Positions 15,001 through 21,000 of a stretch of 64,000 nt of DNA are shown here, piece by piece. Source of the DNA: Escherichia coli O157:H7 (GTDB taxonomy: Bacteria; Pseudomonadota; Gammaproteobacteria; Enterobacterales; Enterobacteriaceae). The stretch lies in NCBI RefSeq assembly GCF_013167455.1, contig NZ_CP038328.1; one strand, given 5' to 3'. Position numbers: made by a program. Within the stretch, counting starts at the first letter, position 1; each line of letters begins with the position of its first letter.

Positions 15001-18000
15001 CCAAGGATATCTCTTTCGAAGCGCCGAACGCGCCGCACGTTTTCCAGAAAGATTGGCAACCAGAAGTTAAACTTGATCTGGATACGGCATCTTCCCAACT
15101 GGCAGATGACGTATACGAAGTGGTACTGCGTGTTACCGTAACGGCCTCCCTGGGCGAAGAAACCGCGTTCCTGTGTGAAGTTCAGCAGGGCGGTATTTTC
15201 TCCATCGCGGGTATCGAAGGCACCCAGATGGCACATTGCCTGGGCGCATACTGCCCGAACATTCTGTTCCCGTATGCTCGTGAGTGCATCACCAGCATGG
15301 TATCCCGCGGTACATTCCCGCAACTGAACCTTGCGCCGGTTAACTTCGATGCGCTGTTCATGAACTATTTGCAGCAGCAGGCTGGCGAAGGTACTGAAGA
15401 ACATCAGGATGCCTGATGAACCAACGTAATGCTTCAATGACTGTGATCGGTGCCGGCTCGTACGGCACCGCTCTTGCCATCACCCTGGCAAGAAATGGCC
15501 ACGAGGTTGTCCTCTGGGGCCATGACCCTGAACATATCGCAACGCTTGAACGCGACCGCTGTAACGCCGCGTTTCTCCCCGATGTGCCTTTTCCCGATAC
15601 GCTCCATCTTGAAAGCGATCTCGCCACTGCGCTGGCAGCCAGCCGTAATATTCTCGTCGTCGTACCCAGCCATGTCTTTGGTGAAGTGCTGCGCCAGATT
15701 AAACCGCTGATGCGTCCTGATGCGCGTCTGGTGTGGGCGACCAAAGGGCTGGAAGCGGAAACCGGACGTCTGTTACAGGACGTGGCGCGTGAGGCCTTAG
15801 GCGATCAAATTCCGCTGGCGGTTATCTCTGGCCCAACGTTTGCGAAAGAACTGGCGGCAGGTTTACCGACAGCTATTTCGCTGGCCTCGACCGATCAGAC
15901 CTTTGCCGATGATCTCCAGCAGCTGCTGCACTGCGGCAAAAGTTTCCGCGTTTACAGCAATCCGGATTTCATTGGCGTGCAGCTTGGCGGTGCGGTGAAA
16001 AACGTCATTGCCATTGGCGCGGGGATGTCCGACGGTATCGGTTTTGGTGCGAATGCGCGTACGGCACTGATCACCCGTGGGCTGGCTGAAATGTCGCGTC
16101 TTGGCGCGGCGCTGGGTGCCGATCCTGCCACCTTTATGGGCATGGCGGGGCTGGGCGATCTTGTGCTTACTTGTACCGACAACCAGTCGCGTAACCGCCG
16201 TTTTGGCATGATGCTCGGTCAGGGCATGGATGTACAAAGCGCGCAGGAGAAGATTGGTCAGGTGGTGGAAGGCTACCGCAATACGAAAGAAGTCCGCGAA
16301 CTGGCGCATCGCTTCGGCGTAGAAATGCCAATAACCGAGGAAATTTATCAAGTATTATATTGCGGAAAAAACGCGCGCGAGGCAGCATTGACGTTATTAG
16401 GTCGTGCACGCAAGGACGAGCGCAGCAGCCACTAACCCCAGGGAACCTTTGTTACCGCTATGACCCGGCCCGCGCAGAACGGGCCGGTCATTATCTCATC
16501 GTGTGGAGTAAGCAATGTCGTGTGAAGAACTGGAAATTGTCTGGAACAATATTAAAGCCGAAGCCAGAACGCTGGCGGACTGTGAGCCAATGCTGGCCAG
16601 TTTTTACCACGCGACGCTACTCAAGCACGAAAACCTTGGTAGTGCACTGAGCTACATGCTGGCGAACAAGCTGTCATCGCCAATTATGCCTGCTATTGCT
16701 ATCCGTGAAGTGGTGGAAGAAGCCTACGCCGCTGACCCGGAAATGATCGCCTCTGCGGCCTGTGATATTCAGGCGGTGCGTACCCGCGACCCGGCAGTCG
16801 ATAAATACTCAACCCCGTTGTTATACCTGAAGGGTTTTCATGCCTTGCAGGCCTATCGCATCGGTCACTGGTTGTGGAATCAGGGGCGTCGCGCATTGGC
16901 AATCTTTCTGCAAAACCAGGTTTCTGTGACGTTCCAGGTCGATATTCACCCGGCAGCAAAAATTGGCCGTGGCATTATGCTCGACCACGCCACGGGCATC
17001 GTTGTGGGTGAAACGGCGGTAATTGAAAACGACGTATCGATTCTGCAATCTGTGACGCTTGGCGGTACGGGTAAATCTGGTGGTGACCGTCACCCGAAAA
17101 TTCGTGAAGGTGTGATGATTGGCGCGGGCGCGAAAATCCTCGGCAATATTGAAGTTGGTCGCGGCGCGAAGATTGGCGCAGGTTCCGTGGTGCTGCAACC
17201 GGTGCCGCCGCATACAACCGCCGCTGGCGTTCCGGCTCGTATTGTCGGTAAACCAGACAGCGATAAGCCATCAATGGATATGGACCAGCATTTCAACGGT
17301 ATTAACCATACATTTGAGTATGGGGATGGGATCTAATGTCCTGTGATCGTGCCGGATGCGATGTAATCATCTATCCGGCATACAGTAACTAATCTCTCAA
17401 CAACGCTCCCGGATATCCCAGCTGCCGCCAGGCTTCATACACCACAACTGACACCGCATTGGACAGGTTCATGCTGCGGCTGTCCGGCACCATCGGAATG
17501 CGAATTTTTTGTTCAGCGGGCAGGGCATCAAGAATGCTCGCTGGCAGGCCGCGTGTTTCCGGGCCGAACATCAGATAATCGCCATCCTGATAGTTTACGG
17601 CGCTGTGAGCAGGCGTACCTTTCGTGGTGAGGGCAAACAGGCGCTGGGGATTTTCTGCTTCGAGGAACGCGCGAAAGTCATGATGACGCGTAACGGCGGT
17701 AAACTCGTGATAGTCCAGCCCCGCGCGGCGCAGGCGCTTATCGTCCCAGGCAAATCCCATCGGTTCGATGATATGCAGACGAAAGCCGGTATTAGCGCAA
17801 AGACGGATGATATTGCCAGTATTTGGCGGAATTTCTGGTTCGTAAAGTACGATGTTTAGCATACTGCCCCCTTAGTGCGGGGGCAGGATAGCAGAAAATT
17901 GGTGAGCAGTGCGGCCTTTTCCCCTCACCCCGGAGGGGCGAGGGAGAAAAAAAGAGTGCGGTGTCGTTTCAGAGTGAGGGAGTACATACAGCGCCGAACG

Positions 18001-21000
18001 GTCCCCACTCCCTGAGGGAGAGGGTTAGGGTGAGGGGGCTCAAACGACTATGCCGCATTCCCTTTCGCCATCGGAGCCAGTGCCGTAGGCAACTCTTTAC
18101 CCAGCCCCTGCACCAGCGAATCTTGCGTAATTTCACTGATCGATTTCGCGCCAGTCAGCGTCATTGCCACTTTCATCTCTTTCTCGATCAGATTTAGCAG
18201 GTTAGCTACACCCGCCTGGCCCGCTGTTGCCAGCGCATACAGGAAAGCACGACCCAGCAGTACGGTGTCGGCACCGAGCGCAATCATACGCACGACATCA
18301 AGCCCGTTACGAATTCCGCTATCCGCCAGAATGGCGATATCACCTTTCACCGCATCTGCAATAGCGGGCAACGCACGAGCGGAAGAGAGTACACCGTCCA
18401 GCTGGCGGCCACCGTGGTTAGAAACTACAATCCCATCAGCACCAAAACGTACTGCATCGCGCGCATCTTCCGGATCGAGGATCCCTTTGATCACCATCGG
18501 GCCATCCCAGAAATCGCGGATCCACTCAAGGTCTTTCCATGAGATGGACGGATCGAAGTTATTCCCCAGCCAGCCGATGTAATCTTCCAGTCCGGTCGGT
18601 TTGCCGAGGTAAGCCGAAATATTACCTAAATCATGCGGACGACCGTTCAGGCCCACATCCCACGCCCATTGCGGATGCGTCACCGCTTGCAAGTAGCGGC
18701 GCATTGCCGCATTTGGGCCGCTCATCCCAGAATGCGCATCACGATAACGCGCTCCCGGTGTCGGCATATCCACGGTGAAAACCAGCGTCGAACAACCCGC
18801 TGCTTTTGCTCGCTCCAGCGCGTTACGCATAAAGCCGCGATCGCGCAGTACATAAAGCTGGAACCACATTGGGCGCTTGATGGCTGGCGCGACTTCTTCA
18901 ATCGGGCAAACGGAAACCGTTGAGAGAGTAAACGGAATGCCATGCGCGTCCGCCGCTTTGGCTGCCTGAACTTCGCCACGACGCGCATACATGCCACACA
19001 AACCCACCGGTGCCAGTGCTACCGGCATCGACAATTTCTCATTAAACAGCGTCGTTTCCAGGCTTAAGTCAGACATGTTTTTCAGAATACGCTGGCGCAG
19101 TGCCACTTCTGACAAATCTTCCACGTTGCGGCGCAGCGTGTATTCAGAATATGCACCACCATCCATATAGTGGAACAGGAACGGCGGCAGAATGCGTTGC
19201 GCTGCGGCGCGATAATCGCTGGCTGCGGAAATAATCATGCGTTTTTCTCCCTCGAATGCTCATTATGCTCACCGGGCAGGCGGGTAATCCGTGCGTGGCG
19301 AGCCTGATCTTCATCGAATCGTTTCATGGTGGTGTGAACAAAACTAAGGTGCGCCATCATTGCTTTACGCGCCCCGTCGGCATCACCAGCAAAAATGGCG
19401 TCAATGACAGCCTGATGTTGTTCGGTCAGTTGTGAAAAAACCGGTGGCACCAGATACATCCGCTGACGGCTATGCTTCACTGAGGATTGCAGGACATCGA
19501 AGAAACCGCGTATGGTTTGCAGCAGCACGATGTTATGTGAGGCTTCGGCAATCGCCAGATGAAAACGAACGTCCGCTTGTGAGGCGATATCCGGGTCTTC
19601 ACTTAGCGTTGCTTCAAAGCAAAGCTGAATCTTTTCTTTGTCGCCAGGTGTGGCGCGCATTGCCGCATGCCATGCGGTGCTGGCTTCAATGGCGTAGCGG
19701 GCTTCCAGAATATCGAAACTGTAATCCGGATCATCGGCCATCAGCGTTTTTAGCGGCTGGACGATGTTTTGCTCCGACCATGTGTCATGACGCCAGCGAA
19801 TAAACGTCCCGCCGCCGCGTCGACTGAGCAGCACGCCTTCGCTCACCAGTTTTGCCAGCGCCTCGCGTAGTGAATTACGTGATACGCCGAGTTGCATCGC
19901 CAGTTGGCGCTCAGCGGGCAACTTCATGCCCGCTTCCAGGTTTTTTTCATCAATCAGCGCCCGCACACGATCGGCAACCTCGTCTGACAGGCGTCTGGGT
20001 AAAACAATCATTAAGGAATCATCCACGTTAAGACATAAGCCTGAAGCGTGGTGATCACGCCCACCATACAGGTGAAGATCAGGCTGTGTTTGACAGTAAA
20101 GCGGAACAAATCAGACTCTTTGCCCACCAGGCCTACCGCCGCACAGGCGATAGCGATAGATTGCGGGGAGATCATCTTACCGGTGACGCCACCGGTGGTA
20201 TTGGCGGCAACCAGCAACAGATCAGAGACGCCAATTTGTTGTGCTGCGGTGGCTTGCAGCGCGGCGAACAGGGCGTTAGATGAGGTATCCGACCCGGTCA
20301 GGAATACCCCCAGCCAGCCGAGGAACGGCGAGAAGAAGGTGAATGCATGACCGGTGTGCGCCAGTGCCAGTGCCAGTGTTGATGACAGTCCGGAATAGTT
20401 CGAGATAAAGGCGAACGCCAGCACCATGCCGATGGAGTAGATGGGTAGAGCCAGTTCTTTCAGCGTGCTGCCGAAGGTGCTGATAGCGTCAGACGGTTTC
20501 ATCTTCAGCCAGACAATCGAGAGCAGTGCAGCAAACAGAATGGCGGTGCCGGTGGCAGAGAACCAGTCAAACTTAAACACGGCGGCATAGGCTGTAGCCT
20601 CGCTGACCACTGGCGGCATACGGGCAACCAGTTTATCGAGGTACGGCACCGGAATGTTGATCACCCACTCATACAGCGCGCCACCCGATGCGAACAGGGC
20701 TTTAAACGGCGGGATACTCCACAGTGTTACGGTAGCTGTCAGGAACAGGAACGGTGTCCAGGCACGTAACACCTGACCCGCAGTGTAACCGGTGTGGGCT
20801 AGCGTCATATCAACCTGTGACGCCCCCAAATCACCAAAACGGAATACGCGCACTGGCTGCCAGCGTTTGAGGAACAGCGTCAGGCAGAGCAGTGATACCA
20901 GCGAAGAGATAATGTCCGGCAGCTCCGGCCCAATGAAGTTAGAGCTAAGGTACTGAGCGATGGCAAACGAGCCGCCCGCAACCACGACCGCAGGCCACGT

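What the first reader, a model, noticed from the sequence alone, without database searches (positions are those of the whole stretch)
17911..18040. Shared GC-rich palindromic repeat family in two intergenic gaps
The trmL-lldD gap (17911-18040) and the mtlA-mtlD gap (30699-30765) share a ccctcaccc(t)aaccctctcc core with flanking complementary gggtgagg blocks. This is a repeat family distinct from the canonical REP palindromes elsewhere in the window. The mtlA-mtlD copy sits inside an operon and could modulate polarity or mRNA stability.
Basis: seen in the sequence. Interest (0 to 1): 0.35.

Follow-up and report, generated by a model that had tools for sequence, protein, structure and literature searches.

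The report
BoxC intergenic repeats in E. coli
Both gaps hold copies of BoxC, a GC-rich repeat known in E. coli since the 1990s. The lldD-trmL copy is dispensable and decaying, while the copy inside the mannitol operon is conserved across many related genera and probably works as an RNA hairpin.

Summary
The 20-nt core occurs three times in the window, only in these two gaps, against 0.01 expected by chance.

It is a known family: BoxC, also called PIT or TMECO, with consensus CCCTCNCCC-N3-6-GGGNGAGGG-N3-GGGNGAGGG. The K-12 lldD-trmL gap holds TMECO #17 and #18 of Holder et al. 2015. In this window both are degraded, one by a substitution and one by a 12-bp slippage deletion. About 35% of 5,420 E. 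coli genomes lack the pair altogether.

The mtlA-mtlD copy is not in that paper's list of 23 K-12 TMECO sequences. It is a five-block inverted BoxC dimer.
- It is present in 5,404 of 5,426 E. coli genomes.
- It sits at the same position in 38 of 42 sampled Enterobacteriaceae mtl loci.
- Its blocks are 91-100% identical across genera, against 49% at four-fold degenerate mtlD sites.
- 98% of stem cells can pair, and wobble changes fit the sense RNA strand (38 G.U against 1 A.C).

I conclude that the family is already known. The lldD-trmL copy behaves as unstable, non-essential DNA. The mtl copy is under purifying selection, most likely as an intercistronic mRNA structure; that function is inferred, not shown.

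The parts
18004..18037 (+). BoxC/TMECO unit of type A (TTA second loop). It reads CCCaCTCCC-TGA-GGGAGAGGG-TTA-GGGTGAGGG-G. It is the orthologue of K-12 TMECO #17, with one substitution (A at 18007) that puts a mismatch in the C-block/G-block hairpin.
   Evidence: sequence. (full-length profile hit, E = 5.6e-9). (K-12 orthologue is a perfect TMECO #17, and the alignment shows the single difference).
17921..17944 (-). Truncated BoxC/TMECO unit, the orthologue of K-12 TMECO #18 (type B). It reads CCCTCGCCCC-TCC-GGGGTGAGGGG on the - strand. A 12-bp deletion removed the middle G block, one unit of the near-tandem CCGGGGAGAGGG/CCGGGGTGAGGG. A plain hairpin is left.
   Evidence: 12-bp gap relative to K-12. 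(profile positions 1-23 only). (strict consensus not met). (folds as a 10-bp hairpin).
17945..18003 (.). Spacer between the two inverted BoxC units. It contains one further degenerate block, GAGTGAGGG at 17972-17980.
   Evidence: block scan..
30700..30759 (-). Five-block BoxC dimer in the mtlA-mtlD spacer, read in the mtl sense direction. Blocks: C1 CCCTCTCC (30750-30757), G1 GGAGAGGG (30738-30745), G2 GGGTGAGGG (30726-30734), C2 CCTCACCCC (30712-30720), C3 CCCTCTC (30703-30709), followed by GGG. It amounts to a forward type-A-like unit plus an inverted type-B-like unit that lacks its last block.
   Evidence: sequence and repeats. (RNA folds of about -40 kcal/mol, z = -4.2). (conservation and pairing across 34 Enterobacteriaceae sequences). 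(present in 5,404 of 5,426 E. coli genomes).
30674..30699 (-). Conserved tail between the element and the mtlD start codon (GGGTAAAAACATTGATGAAGGTTAATACT). It contains the mtlD ribosome-binding site.
   Evidence: 77-93% pairwise identity across genera.

Best explanation
Both gaps carry members of the known BoxC repeat family of E. coli, also called PIT or TMECO.

What the element is: 9-nt C blocks (CCCTCNCCC) and G blocks (GGGNGAGGG), normally in the order C-G-G. Units often sit in inverted pairs of a type-A and a type-B unit.

Behaviour as DNA (inferred from the indels seen): the near-identical blocks misalign or form hairpins during replication, which produces indels.
- The lldD-trmL pair has lost a block by a 12-bp slippage and carries a point mutation in the other unit.
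- The pair is missing in about a third of E. coli genomes.
- The window's short mtlA-mtlD gap arose by a 135-bp deletion between two CCCTCTCC repeats. This removed a REP/BIME array and an upstream hairpin.

Behaviour as RNA (inferred): the blocks give very stable hairpins.
- The lldD-trmL copy shows no sign of a function.
- The mtlA-mtlD copy is an ancient, positionally fixed BoxC dimer under purifying selection.
- It most likely acts in the mtlADR transcript as a stable intercistronic stem-loop. It can adopt two nearly isoenergetic folds, C1:G1 plus G2:C2, or one long G1G2:C2C3 hairpin.
- Such a structure would protect or partition the mRNA on either side, so that mtlA and mtlD-mtlR levels are partly uncoupled. 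It would not terminate transcription.

Shown here: family identity, indel history, conservation and pairing pattern. Inferred: the RNA-level function.
For: Identity:
- Published consensus and Table 1 of Holder et al. 2015 (PMC4666352).
- The K-12 orthologous gap matches the strict consensus twice, at the published coordinates of TMECO #17 and #18. Their supplement names lldD and trmL as the neighbours.
- A profile of the 23 published copies hits only these sites in the window.
- The family is present in 5,425 of 5,426 E. coli genomes, with a median of 19 places per genome.

Instability:
- 12-bp deletion between tandem G blocks.
- 135-bp indel bounded by CCCTCTCC repeats. The long form is present in the outgroup E. 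albertii.
- lldD-trmL gap alleles of 197, 185, 154, 72 and 47 bp. Only 3,508 of 5,420 genomes keep at least 80% of the region.

Selection on the mtl copy:
- Present in 5,404 of 5,426 E. coli genomes, while only the adjacent REP array varies.
- Found at the same position in 38 of 42 sampled Enterobacteriaceae mtl loci.
- Block identity is 0.91-1.00, against 0.49 at four-fold degenerate sites and 0.44 in the loop.
- The RNAalifold consensus is the long hairpin.
- Of 17 pairs, 98.3% of cells are paired, against 35-59% when the partners are slid. Two pairs show compensatory changes.
- There are 38 G.U wobble cells on the sense strand against 1 A.C.
- The C1:G1 hairpin has 7-10 bp in all 35 sequences despite unrelated loop sequences, although in one (L090) the fold uses a different, degenerate upstream stretch rather than C1.
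- The two folds are nearly isoenergetic, mean difference -0.15 kcal/mol.
- Sister families carry other hairpins at the same place, often with T-runs.
Against: - There is no experimental evidence of any RNA-level effect. As summarised in PMC4666352, earlier studies found no promoter, terminator or polymerase-blocking activity of PIT elements in vivo.
- Most stem positions never vary (8 of 17 pairs), so true covariation is thin.
- The sequences are related by descent, so cell counts overstate the number of independent events.
- The G.U excess could partly reflect strand-biased C-to-T mutation on the non-template strand.
- Conservation of the blocks could be helped by gene conversion from other BoxC copies.
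- Four Enterobacteriaceae loci lack the element.
- In Escherichia and Citrobacter, REP arrays of variable length sit next to it. Any mechanism that depends on distance from the mtlA stop codon therefore cannot be general.
Confidence: 0.8

Rival explanations
1. Both loci are functionless selfish or neutral BoxC DNA. Under this view the mtl copy looks conserved only because BoxC copies are homogenised by gene conversion or templated repair, or because the blocks mutate slowly.
For: - Holder et al. found no functional class, distance or orientation rule for TMECOs.
- The lldD-trmL copy is clearly dispensable.
- Other BoxC copies that could act as conversion donors exist in the other genera.
Against: - The mtl copy keeps locus-specific features that are not the family majority. 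Examples are the CAG linker and the missing sixth block, seen across genera.
- Loop and four-fold sites are saturated (0.44-0.49 identity) while blocks are at 0.91-1.00.
- Substitutions are strongly biased towards those that keep sense-strand RNA pairing.
- Sister families have unrelated hairpins at the same spot.
Confidence: 0.2
2. The elements act at the DNA level as intrastrand triplexes of the purine motif (C-block:G-block hairpin plus a third G block). Such structures would stall replication and so generate local genome variability, which might be adaptive.
For: - Oligonucleotides of this sequence form stable triplexes in vitro, and TMECO loci are more variable than control loci (PMC4666352).
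- Both loci here show block-bounded indels.
Against: - The same paper reports no triplex signal in double-stranded DNA and none in in vivo DMS footprints.
- None of the three window copies meets the three-block consensus, and one has lost its third block altogether.
- The mtl copy is unusually stable, and its conserved C2 and C3 blocks are not needed for a triplex.
- The indels seen are explained by simple slippage or recombination between direct repeats.
Confidence: 0.15
3. The mtlA-mtlD element is an operon-internal transcription terminator or attenuator that causes polarity on mtlD and mtlR.
For: - It forms GC-rich hairpins of about -40 kcal/mol.
- In Pectobacterium, Brenneria, Dickeya, Mixta, Erwinia and Vibrio the same spacer holds a hairpin followed by a T-run.
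Against: - In Enterobacteriaceae the hairpin is followed by GGGUAAAAAC, not by a U-tract.
- The terminator scan finds nothing in 30400-31000.
- PIT elements showed no terminator activity in the earlier study cited.
Confidence: 0.08
4. The similarity between the two gaps is due to chance, or the sequences are just variants of REP/BIME.
For: None beyond the general GC-rich palindromic look.
Against: - Chance expectation for the shared core is 0.01 per window.
- The profile hits are significant.
- The family has a median of 19 places per genome in 5,425 genomes.
- The REP consensus is different, and in K-12 a BIME and the BoxC element lie side by side in the mtl gap as separate modules.
Confidence: 0.01

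Closest known systems
BoxC, also called PIT (potential intrastrand triplex) element or TMECO, of E. coli (Bergler 1992; Bachellier 1999; Hoyne 2000 and 2002; Holder 2015, PMC4666352)
   Same: - Same blocks, order, loop types (TTA and CCG/CTG), intergenic location and copy number.
- Same inverted type-A plus type-B pairing.
- The lldD-trmL copies are the orthologues of the published TMECO #17 and #18.
   Different: - In this strain no copy meets the strict published consensus. The causes are a substitution, a 12-bp deletion, and 8-nt instead of 9-nt blocks.
- The mtl copy is absent from that paper's list of 23 K-12 TMECO sequences.
- Unlike the variable loci that paper describes, the mtl copy is positionally conserved across genera.
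REP/BIME (repetitive extragenic palindromes)
   Same: - Short GC-rich palindromic intergenic repeats, often inside operons.
- REPs in the malE-malF spacer stabilise upstream mRNA, which is the model for the function proposed here (from general knowledge).
   Different: - Unrelated consensus.
- REPs are linked to RAYT transposases and bind IHF and gyrase; nothing of the kind is known for BoxC.
- In K-12 and other strains, REP arrays lie next to the mtl BoxC element as a separate, highly variable module.
H-DNA and triplex-forming mirror repeats
   Same: Homopurine/homopyrimidine-rich blocks able to form C:G*G triads in vitro, and an association with local instability.
   Different: - Here three blocks lie on one strand (intrastrand), which is not a mirror repeat in duplex DNA.
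- No in vivo triplex was detected in the published work.
- RNA cannot form the purine-motif triplex, according to the introduction of PMC4666352.
Intercistronic stem-loops and intrinsic terminators within operons
   Same: - The position between two cistrons of one operon and very stable hairpins.
- Sister families have terminator-like hairpins at the same site.
   Different: - No U-tract.
- The structure is built from a dispersed repeat.
- Two mutually exclusive folds of nearly equal energy.

Membership tests
BoxC / PIT / TMECO | Three-block consensus CCCTCNCCC-N3-6-GGGNGAGGG-N3-GGGNGAGGG | tested here: inconclusive
   - The strict pattern has 0 matches in the window but 2 in the orthologous K-12 gap.
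- The profile of the 23 published copies gives a full-length hit at 18003-18037 (E = 5.6e-9) and partial hits at 17922-17944 and 30726-30747.
- The departures are one substitution, one 12-bp deletion and 8-nt blocks, so these are degraded or variant members.
BoxC / PIT / TMECO | Orthology to a published copy | tested here: met
   - TMECO #17 (3,781,061-3,781,028) and #18 (3,781,121-3,781,156) lie in the K-12 lldD-trmL gap.
- Apart from one 12-bp indel, the window gap differs from K-12 at two positions.
- The mtl copy has no published counterpart in that list.
BoxC / PIT / TMECO | Dispersed multi-copy family, intergenic, roughly 20-30 copies per E. coli genome | tested here: met
   - A 36-nt consensus finds 92,750 places in 5,425 of 5,426 genomes.
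- The median is 19 per genome and the range is 1-32. A genome 100% identical to the searched stretches of the window has 15.
- Both window loci are intergenic.
BoxC / PIT / TMECO | Frequent inverted pairing of a type-A unit (TTA loop) with a type-B unit (CCG/CTG loop) | tested here: met
   - lldD-trmL has a type-A unit and a (truncated) type-B unit in inverted orientation.
- The mtl element has a forward TTT unit plus an inverted CTG unit.
BoxC / PIT / TMECO | Formation of an intrastrand purine-motif triplex by the single strand in vitro | not testable with these tools
   - ViennaRNA does not model triplexes.
- The copy at 17921-17944 has lost the third block and cannot form one.
- The published in vitro evidence is for K-12 sequences.
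REP / BIME | REP consensus (GCCKGATGCGRCG...CTTATCMGGCCTAC type) | tested here: not met
   - The REP pattern matches only 53497-53533 in the window.
- The BoxC blocks share no similarity with it.
- In K-12 the BIME is a separate insert beside the BoxC element.
Intrinsic (Rho-independent) terminator | GC-rich hairpin immediately followed by a U-tract on the transcribed strand | tested here: not met
   - No terminator-like site was found at either element.
- The hairpins are followed by GGGUAAAAAC (mtl) and GAAAAGG (lldD-trmL).
Curated RNA families (Rfam 15) | Match to any covariance model at its gathering score | tested here: not met
   Only chance hairpin-like hits appear, far below the gathering scores.

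The most novel reading that the evidence does not exclude
The mtlA-mtlD BoxC dimer is a domesticated copy of an otherwise function-less repeat. Under this reading it is a two-state RNA element kept for the whole history of the Enterobacteriaceae.
- Its G1 block can pair either with C1, which lies 8-12 nt after the mtlA stop codon in genera without REP inserts, or with C3.
- Ribosomes terminating on mtlA, or RNases, would then decide which fold forms, and so how much mtlD-mtlR message survives or is translated.
- It would be the first BoxC copy with a demonstrated function and would give an experimental handle on the family.
Probability: 0.3. Interest if true: 0.55.

Novelty: already known. Interest (0 to 1): 0.35.

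Why it matters
BoxC has been catalogued for about 30 years without an accepted function. The latest study links it only to local genome instability.

For genome annotation, the practical message is that these sequences should be labelled BoxC/PIT. They are neither a new family nor terminators.

The useful new point is the contrast between the two loci.
- The lldD-trmL copy is decaying and is absent from a third of strains.
- The mtl copy is fixed in E. coli and conserved at the same place across many genera, with an RNA-type substitution pattern.

The mtl copy is therefore the obvious place to test experimentally whether a BoxC element can have a function, for example in tuning the transporter-to-dehydrogenase ratio in the mannitol operon.

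Tried and rejected
- Rfam at gathering threshold over the whole window, and at E up to 10 on both gaps, gave only chance hairpin hits.
- The RefSeq MG1655 annotation of the region lists no repeat features, so it did not help name the element.
- The first two literature searches for 'box C' were swamped by unrelated uses of the term. 'boxC' combined with REP found the key paper.
- A search for work on the mtlA-mtlD spacer found nothing relevant. The RepRanger REP paper does not mention BoxC.
- Promoter and terminator scans were negative at both loci.
- The isolated GGGTGAGG and GGGGGAGGG matches at 10343, 46709 and 34720 are not family members, since the profile does not hit them.
- A regex-based block decomposition script failed on variant G2 blocks. 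A MAFFT alignment replaced it.
- A conserved small ORF across the mtl element was considered and rejected, because the central loop varies from 6 to 18 nt with lengths that are not multiples of three.
- Recent horizontal transfer as the cause of the mtl conservation was rejected, because four-fold degenerate sites in the adjacent mtlD are only 49% identical.

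
Full report
**1. What is there**

The window is E. coli chromosome. Stretches of it searched against RefSeq were 100% identical to O157:H7 and other genomes. All four genes lie on the - strand: trmL 17389-17862, lldD 18048-19238, mtlD 29525-30673 and mtlA 30768-32681.

The complementary GGGTGAGG/CCTCACCC arms are also present.

**2. Identity**

A literature search led to Holder et al. 2015 (PMC4666352). That paper treats this sequence as BoxC (Bergler 1992), re-described as the PIT element (Hoyne 2000) and renamed TMECO. The consensus is CCCTCNCCC-N3-6-GGGNGAGGG-N3-GGGNGAGGG. There are 23 strict copies in K-12. Type A has a TTA second loop and type B a CCG loop. Five loci hold an inverted A+B pair.

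TMECO #17 and #18 in their Table 1 lie at 3,781,028-3,781,156, which is the K-12 lldD-trmL gap. Their supplement names lldD and trmL as the neighbours. I confirmed that the strict pattern matches twice there.

In the window the strict pattern matches nowhere. A profile built from the 23 published copies hits only the following places:
- 18003-18037, full length, E = 5.6e-9.
- 17922-17944, the first two blocks only.
- 30726-30747 and 30703-30720, in the mtl gap.

A 36-nt consensus finds the family in 5,425 of 5,426 complete E. coli genomes, with a median of 19 places per genome. Rfam has no model for it. It is unrelated to REP, which occurs at 53497-53533.

**3. The lldD-trmL locus**

Apart from one 12-bp indel, the window gap differs from K-12 at two positions.
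- One substitution lies in the C block of unit #17 (CCCTCTCCC becomes CCCaCTCCC in the window's + orientation).
- The 12-bp deletion removes one of the two near-identical tandem G blocks of unit #18 (CCGGGGAGAGGG / CCGGGGTGAGGG). This is the signature of replication slippage. It leaves a plain 10-bp hairpin.

Across 5,420 E. coli genomes the gap exists as alleles of 197, 185, 154, 72 and 47 bp.
- Only 3,508 genomes keep at least 80% of the region.
- The 47-bp allele has no BoxC at all.
- The 72-bp allele keeps a single G block.
- The 154-bp allele has its centre replaced by another palindrome.

This copy is therefore dispensable and decaying, as Holder et al. describe for TMECO loci in general. 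Neither unit is followed by a U-tract.

**4. The mtlA-mtlD locus**

Read in the mtl sense direction the element is C1 CCCTCTCC - tcac - G1 GGAGAGGG - TTT - G2 GGGTGAGGG - aaaag - C2 CCTCACCCC - AG - C3 CCCTCTC - GGG. The mtlD ribosome-binding site follows.

This is a forward type-A-like unit joined to an inverted type-B-like unit (CTG loop) that lacks its last block. It is the same inverted A+B organisation as the published pairs, but compressed. It is not in the paper's list of 23, because its first hairpin has 8-nt arms.

K-12 has a 229-bp gap. The extra 135 bp consist of a small hairpin plus a BIME, bounded by CCCTCTCC direct repeats. Other strains have 319-520-bp gaps made of longer REP arrays.

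The outgroup E. albertii has the hairpin, the BIME and the BoxC element. The window's 94-bp gap is therefore a derived deletion between the repeated blocks.

The BoxC dimer itself is present, at 95% identity or more in nearly all cases, in 5,404 of 5,426 genomes.

**5. Comparison across genera**

This gave 120 loci.

Of 42 Enterobacteriaceae loci, 38 carry a BoxC element at the same place, about 30-95 nt upstream of mtlD, in the same orientation and with the same five-block layout. The genera are Escherichia, Citrobacter, Enterobacter, Lelliottia, Leclercia, Kosakonia, Cedecea, Pluralibacter, Phytobacter, Pseudocitrobacter, Pseudescherichia, Superficieibacter, Siccibacter and Mangrovibacter. 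Family placement was checked for three of them.

No BoxC hit occurs in the Yersiniaceae, Erwiniaceae, Pectobacteriaceae, Vibrionaceae or Firmicutes loci. Those carry other hairpins in the same spacer, several with T-runs that look like intrinsic terminators.

In an alignment of 34 distinct sequences, mean pairwise identity is as follows:

| Region | Identity |
|---|---|
| G1 block | 1.00 |
| G2 block | 0.96 |
| C2 block | 0.92 |
| C3 block | 0.91 |
| Central loop | 0.44 |
| Four-fold degenerate sites of the adjacent mtlD | 0.49 |
| mtlD codon position 1 | 0.90 |
| mtlD codon position 2 | 0.93 |

The blocks are therefore under purifying selection, or under homogenisation.

Evidence on the structure:
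- RNAalifold predicts the long hairpin G1-G2:C2-C3.
- Of its 17 pairs, 98.3% of cells are paired, against 35-59% for slid controls. Eight pairs never vary, four vary on one side only and two show compensatory changes.
- Non-Watson-Crick cells are 38 G.U/U.G on the mtl sense strand against 1 A.C. This fits a constraint on the sense RNA rather than on a DNA cruciform or an antisense RNA.
- The C1:G1 hairpin has 7-10 bp in all 35 sequences despite unrelated loops, although in one (L090) C1 is degenerate and the fold uses different pairs.
- The two mutually exclusive folds are nearly isoenergetic, mean difference -0.15 kcal/mol.
- The central loop is 6-18 nt long, which excludes a conserved reading frame.

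**6. Interpretation**

Shown here:
- Family membership.
- The indel history.
- The contrast between a dispensable copy and a conserved copy.
- The RNA-compatible substitution pattern.

Inferred: the mtl copy works as a stable intercistronic mRNA structure. It could act as a barrier to exonucleases or as a protective 5' or 3' hairpin after processing. This would resemble REP in malE-malF, a comparison I make from general knowledge. I do not think it is a terminator, because there is no U-tract and earlier tests of PIT elements found no terminator or promoter activity.

Caveats:
- Few positions vary.
- The sequences are phylogenetically related.
- Strand-biased mutation and gene conversion are possible contributors.

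**7. Verdict**

The finding is real, but it is the already known BoxC/PIT/TMECO family, and the lldD-trmL copies are individually listed in the literature. I did not find the cross-genus conservation of the mtl copy described in the papers available to me. It gives modest added interest as a testable case of function for this family.

Noticed in passing
window 17864-17886 (- strand sense, immediately upstream of the trmL ATG at 17862): A perfect 8-bp hairpin, CTGCCCCC-gcactaa-GGGGGCAG, whose 3' arm contains the likely trmL Shine-Dalgarno sequence (AAGGGGG) and ends one base before the start codon. It is invariant in all seven lldD-trmL alleles aligned, including those without BoxC. It may control trmL translation.
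   Followed up: partly
L002 (NZ_AP045789.1) about 240-275; also the 353/354-bp alleles: In one common lldD-trmL allele the centre of the BoxC pair is replaced by a 35-bp palindrome, CTGTCTCTTGATCAGATCTCCTGATCAAGAGACAG. From memory, its arm equals the 19-bp inside end of IS50/Tn5. It may be a transposon-end scar or a miniature element.
   Followed up: no
L001 4196-4424, L007 201-720, L008 201-519 (mtlA-mtlD gaps of other E. coli strains): The mtlA-mtlD gap ranges from 94 to 520 bp among E. coli strains. The cause is expansion and contraction of a tandem REP/BIME array, together with a small hairpin (CACCCTCTCC...GGAGAAGGTGGGG) upstream of the invariant BoxC dimer.
   Followed up: partly
L038, L069, L042, L117, L084, L039, L044, L010 (mtlA-mtlD spacers of Pectobacterium, Brenneria, Dickeya, Mixta, Erwinia, Vibrio): Outside the Enterobacteriaceae the same spacer carries a GC hairpin followed by a T-run, which looks like an intrinsic terminator. 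Pantoea has two related GGGGCGG...CCCGCCCC hairpins and Serratia a GGGTGCAGC...GCTGCACCC hairpin. Some stable structure after mtlA seems to be a general feature of the operon.
   Followed up: partly
window 58800-58842 (+): Rfam gathering-level match to ES036 (CssrF) sRNA, 49.5 bits.
   Followed up: no
window 53497-53533 (-): A canonical REP sequence, GCCTGATGCGACGC...GTCTTATCAGGCATAC. It confirms that classical REPs occur elsewhere in the window.
   Followed up: no
L062 162-197, 4110-4284; L090 2063-2301; L096 12128-12224; L116 2912-2946: Additional BoxC units, including inverted pairs, lie at other intergenic sites near the mtl operon in Enterobacter, Pluralibacter and Cedecea. They have no counterpart in the E. 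coli window. The family is therefore active or variable in several genera.
   Followed up: no
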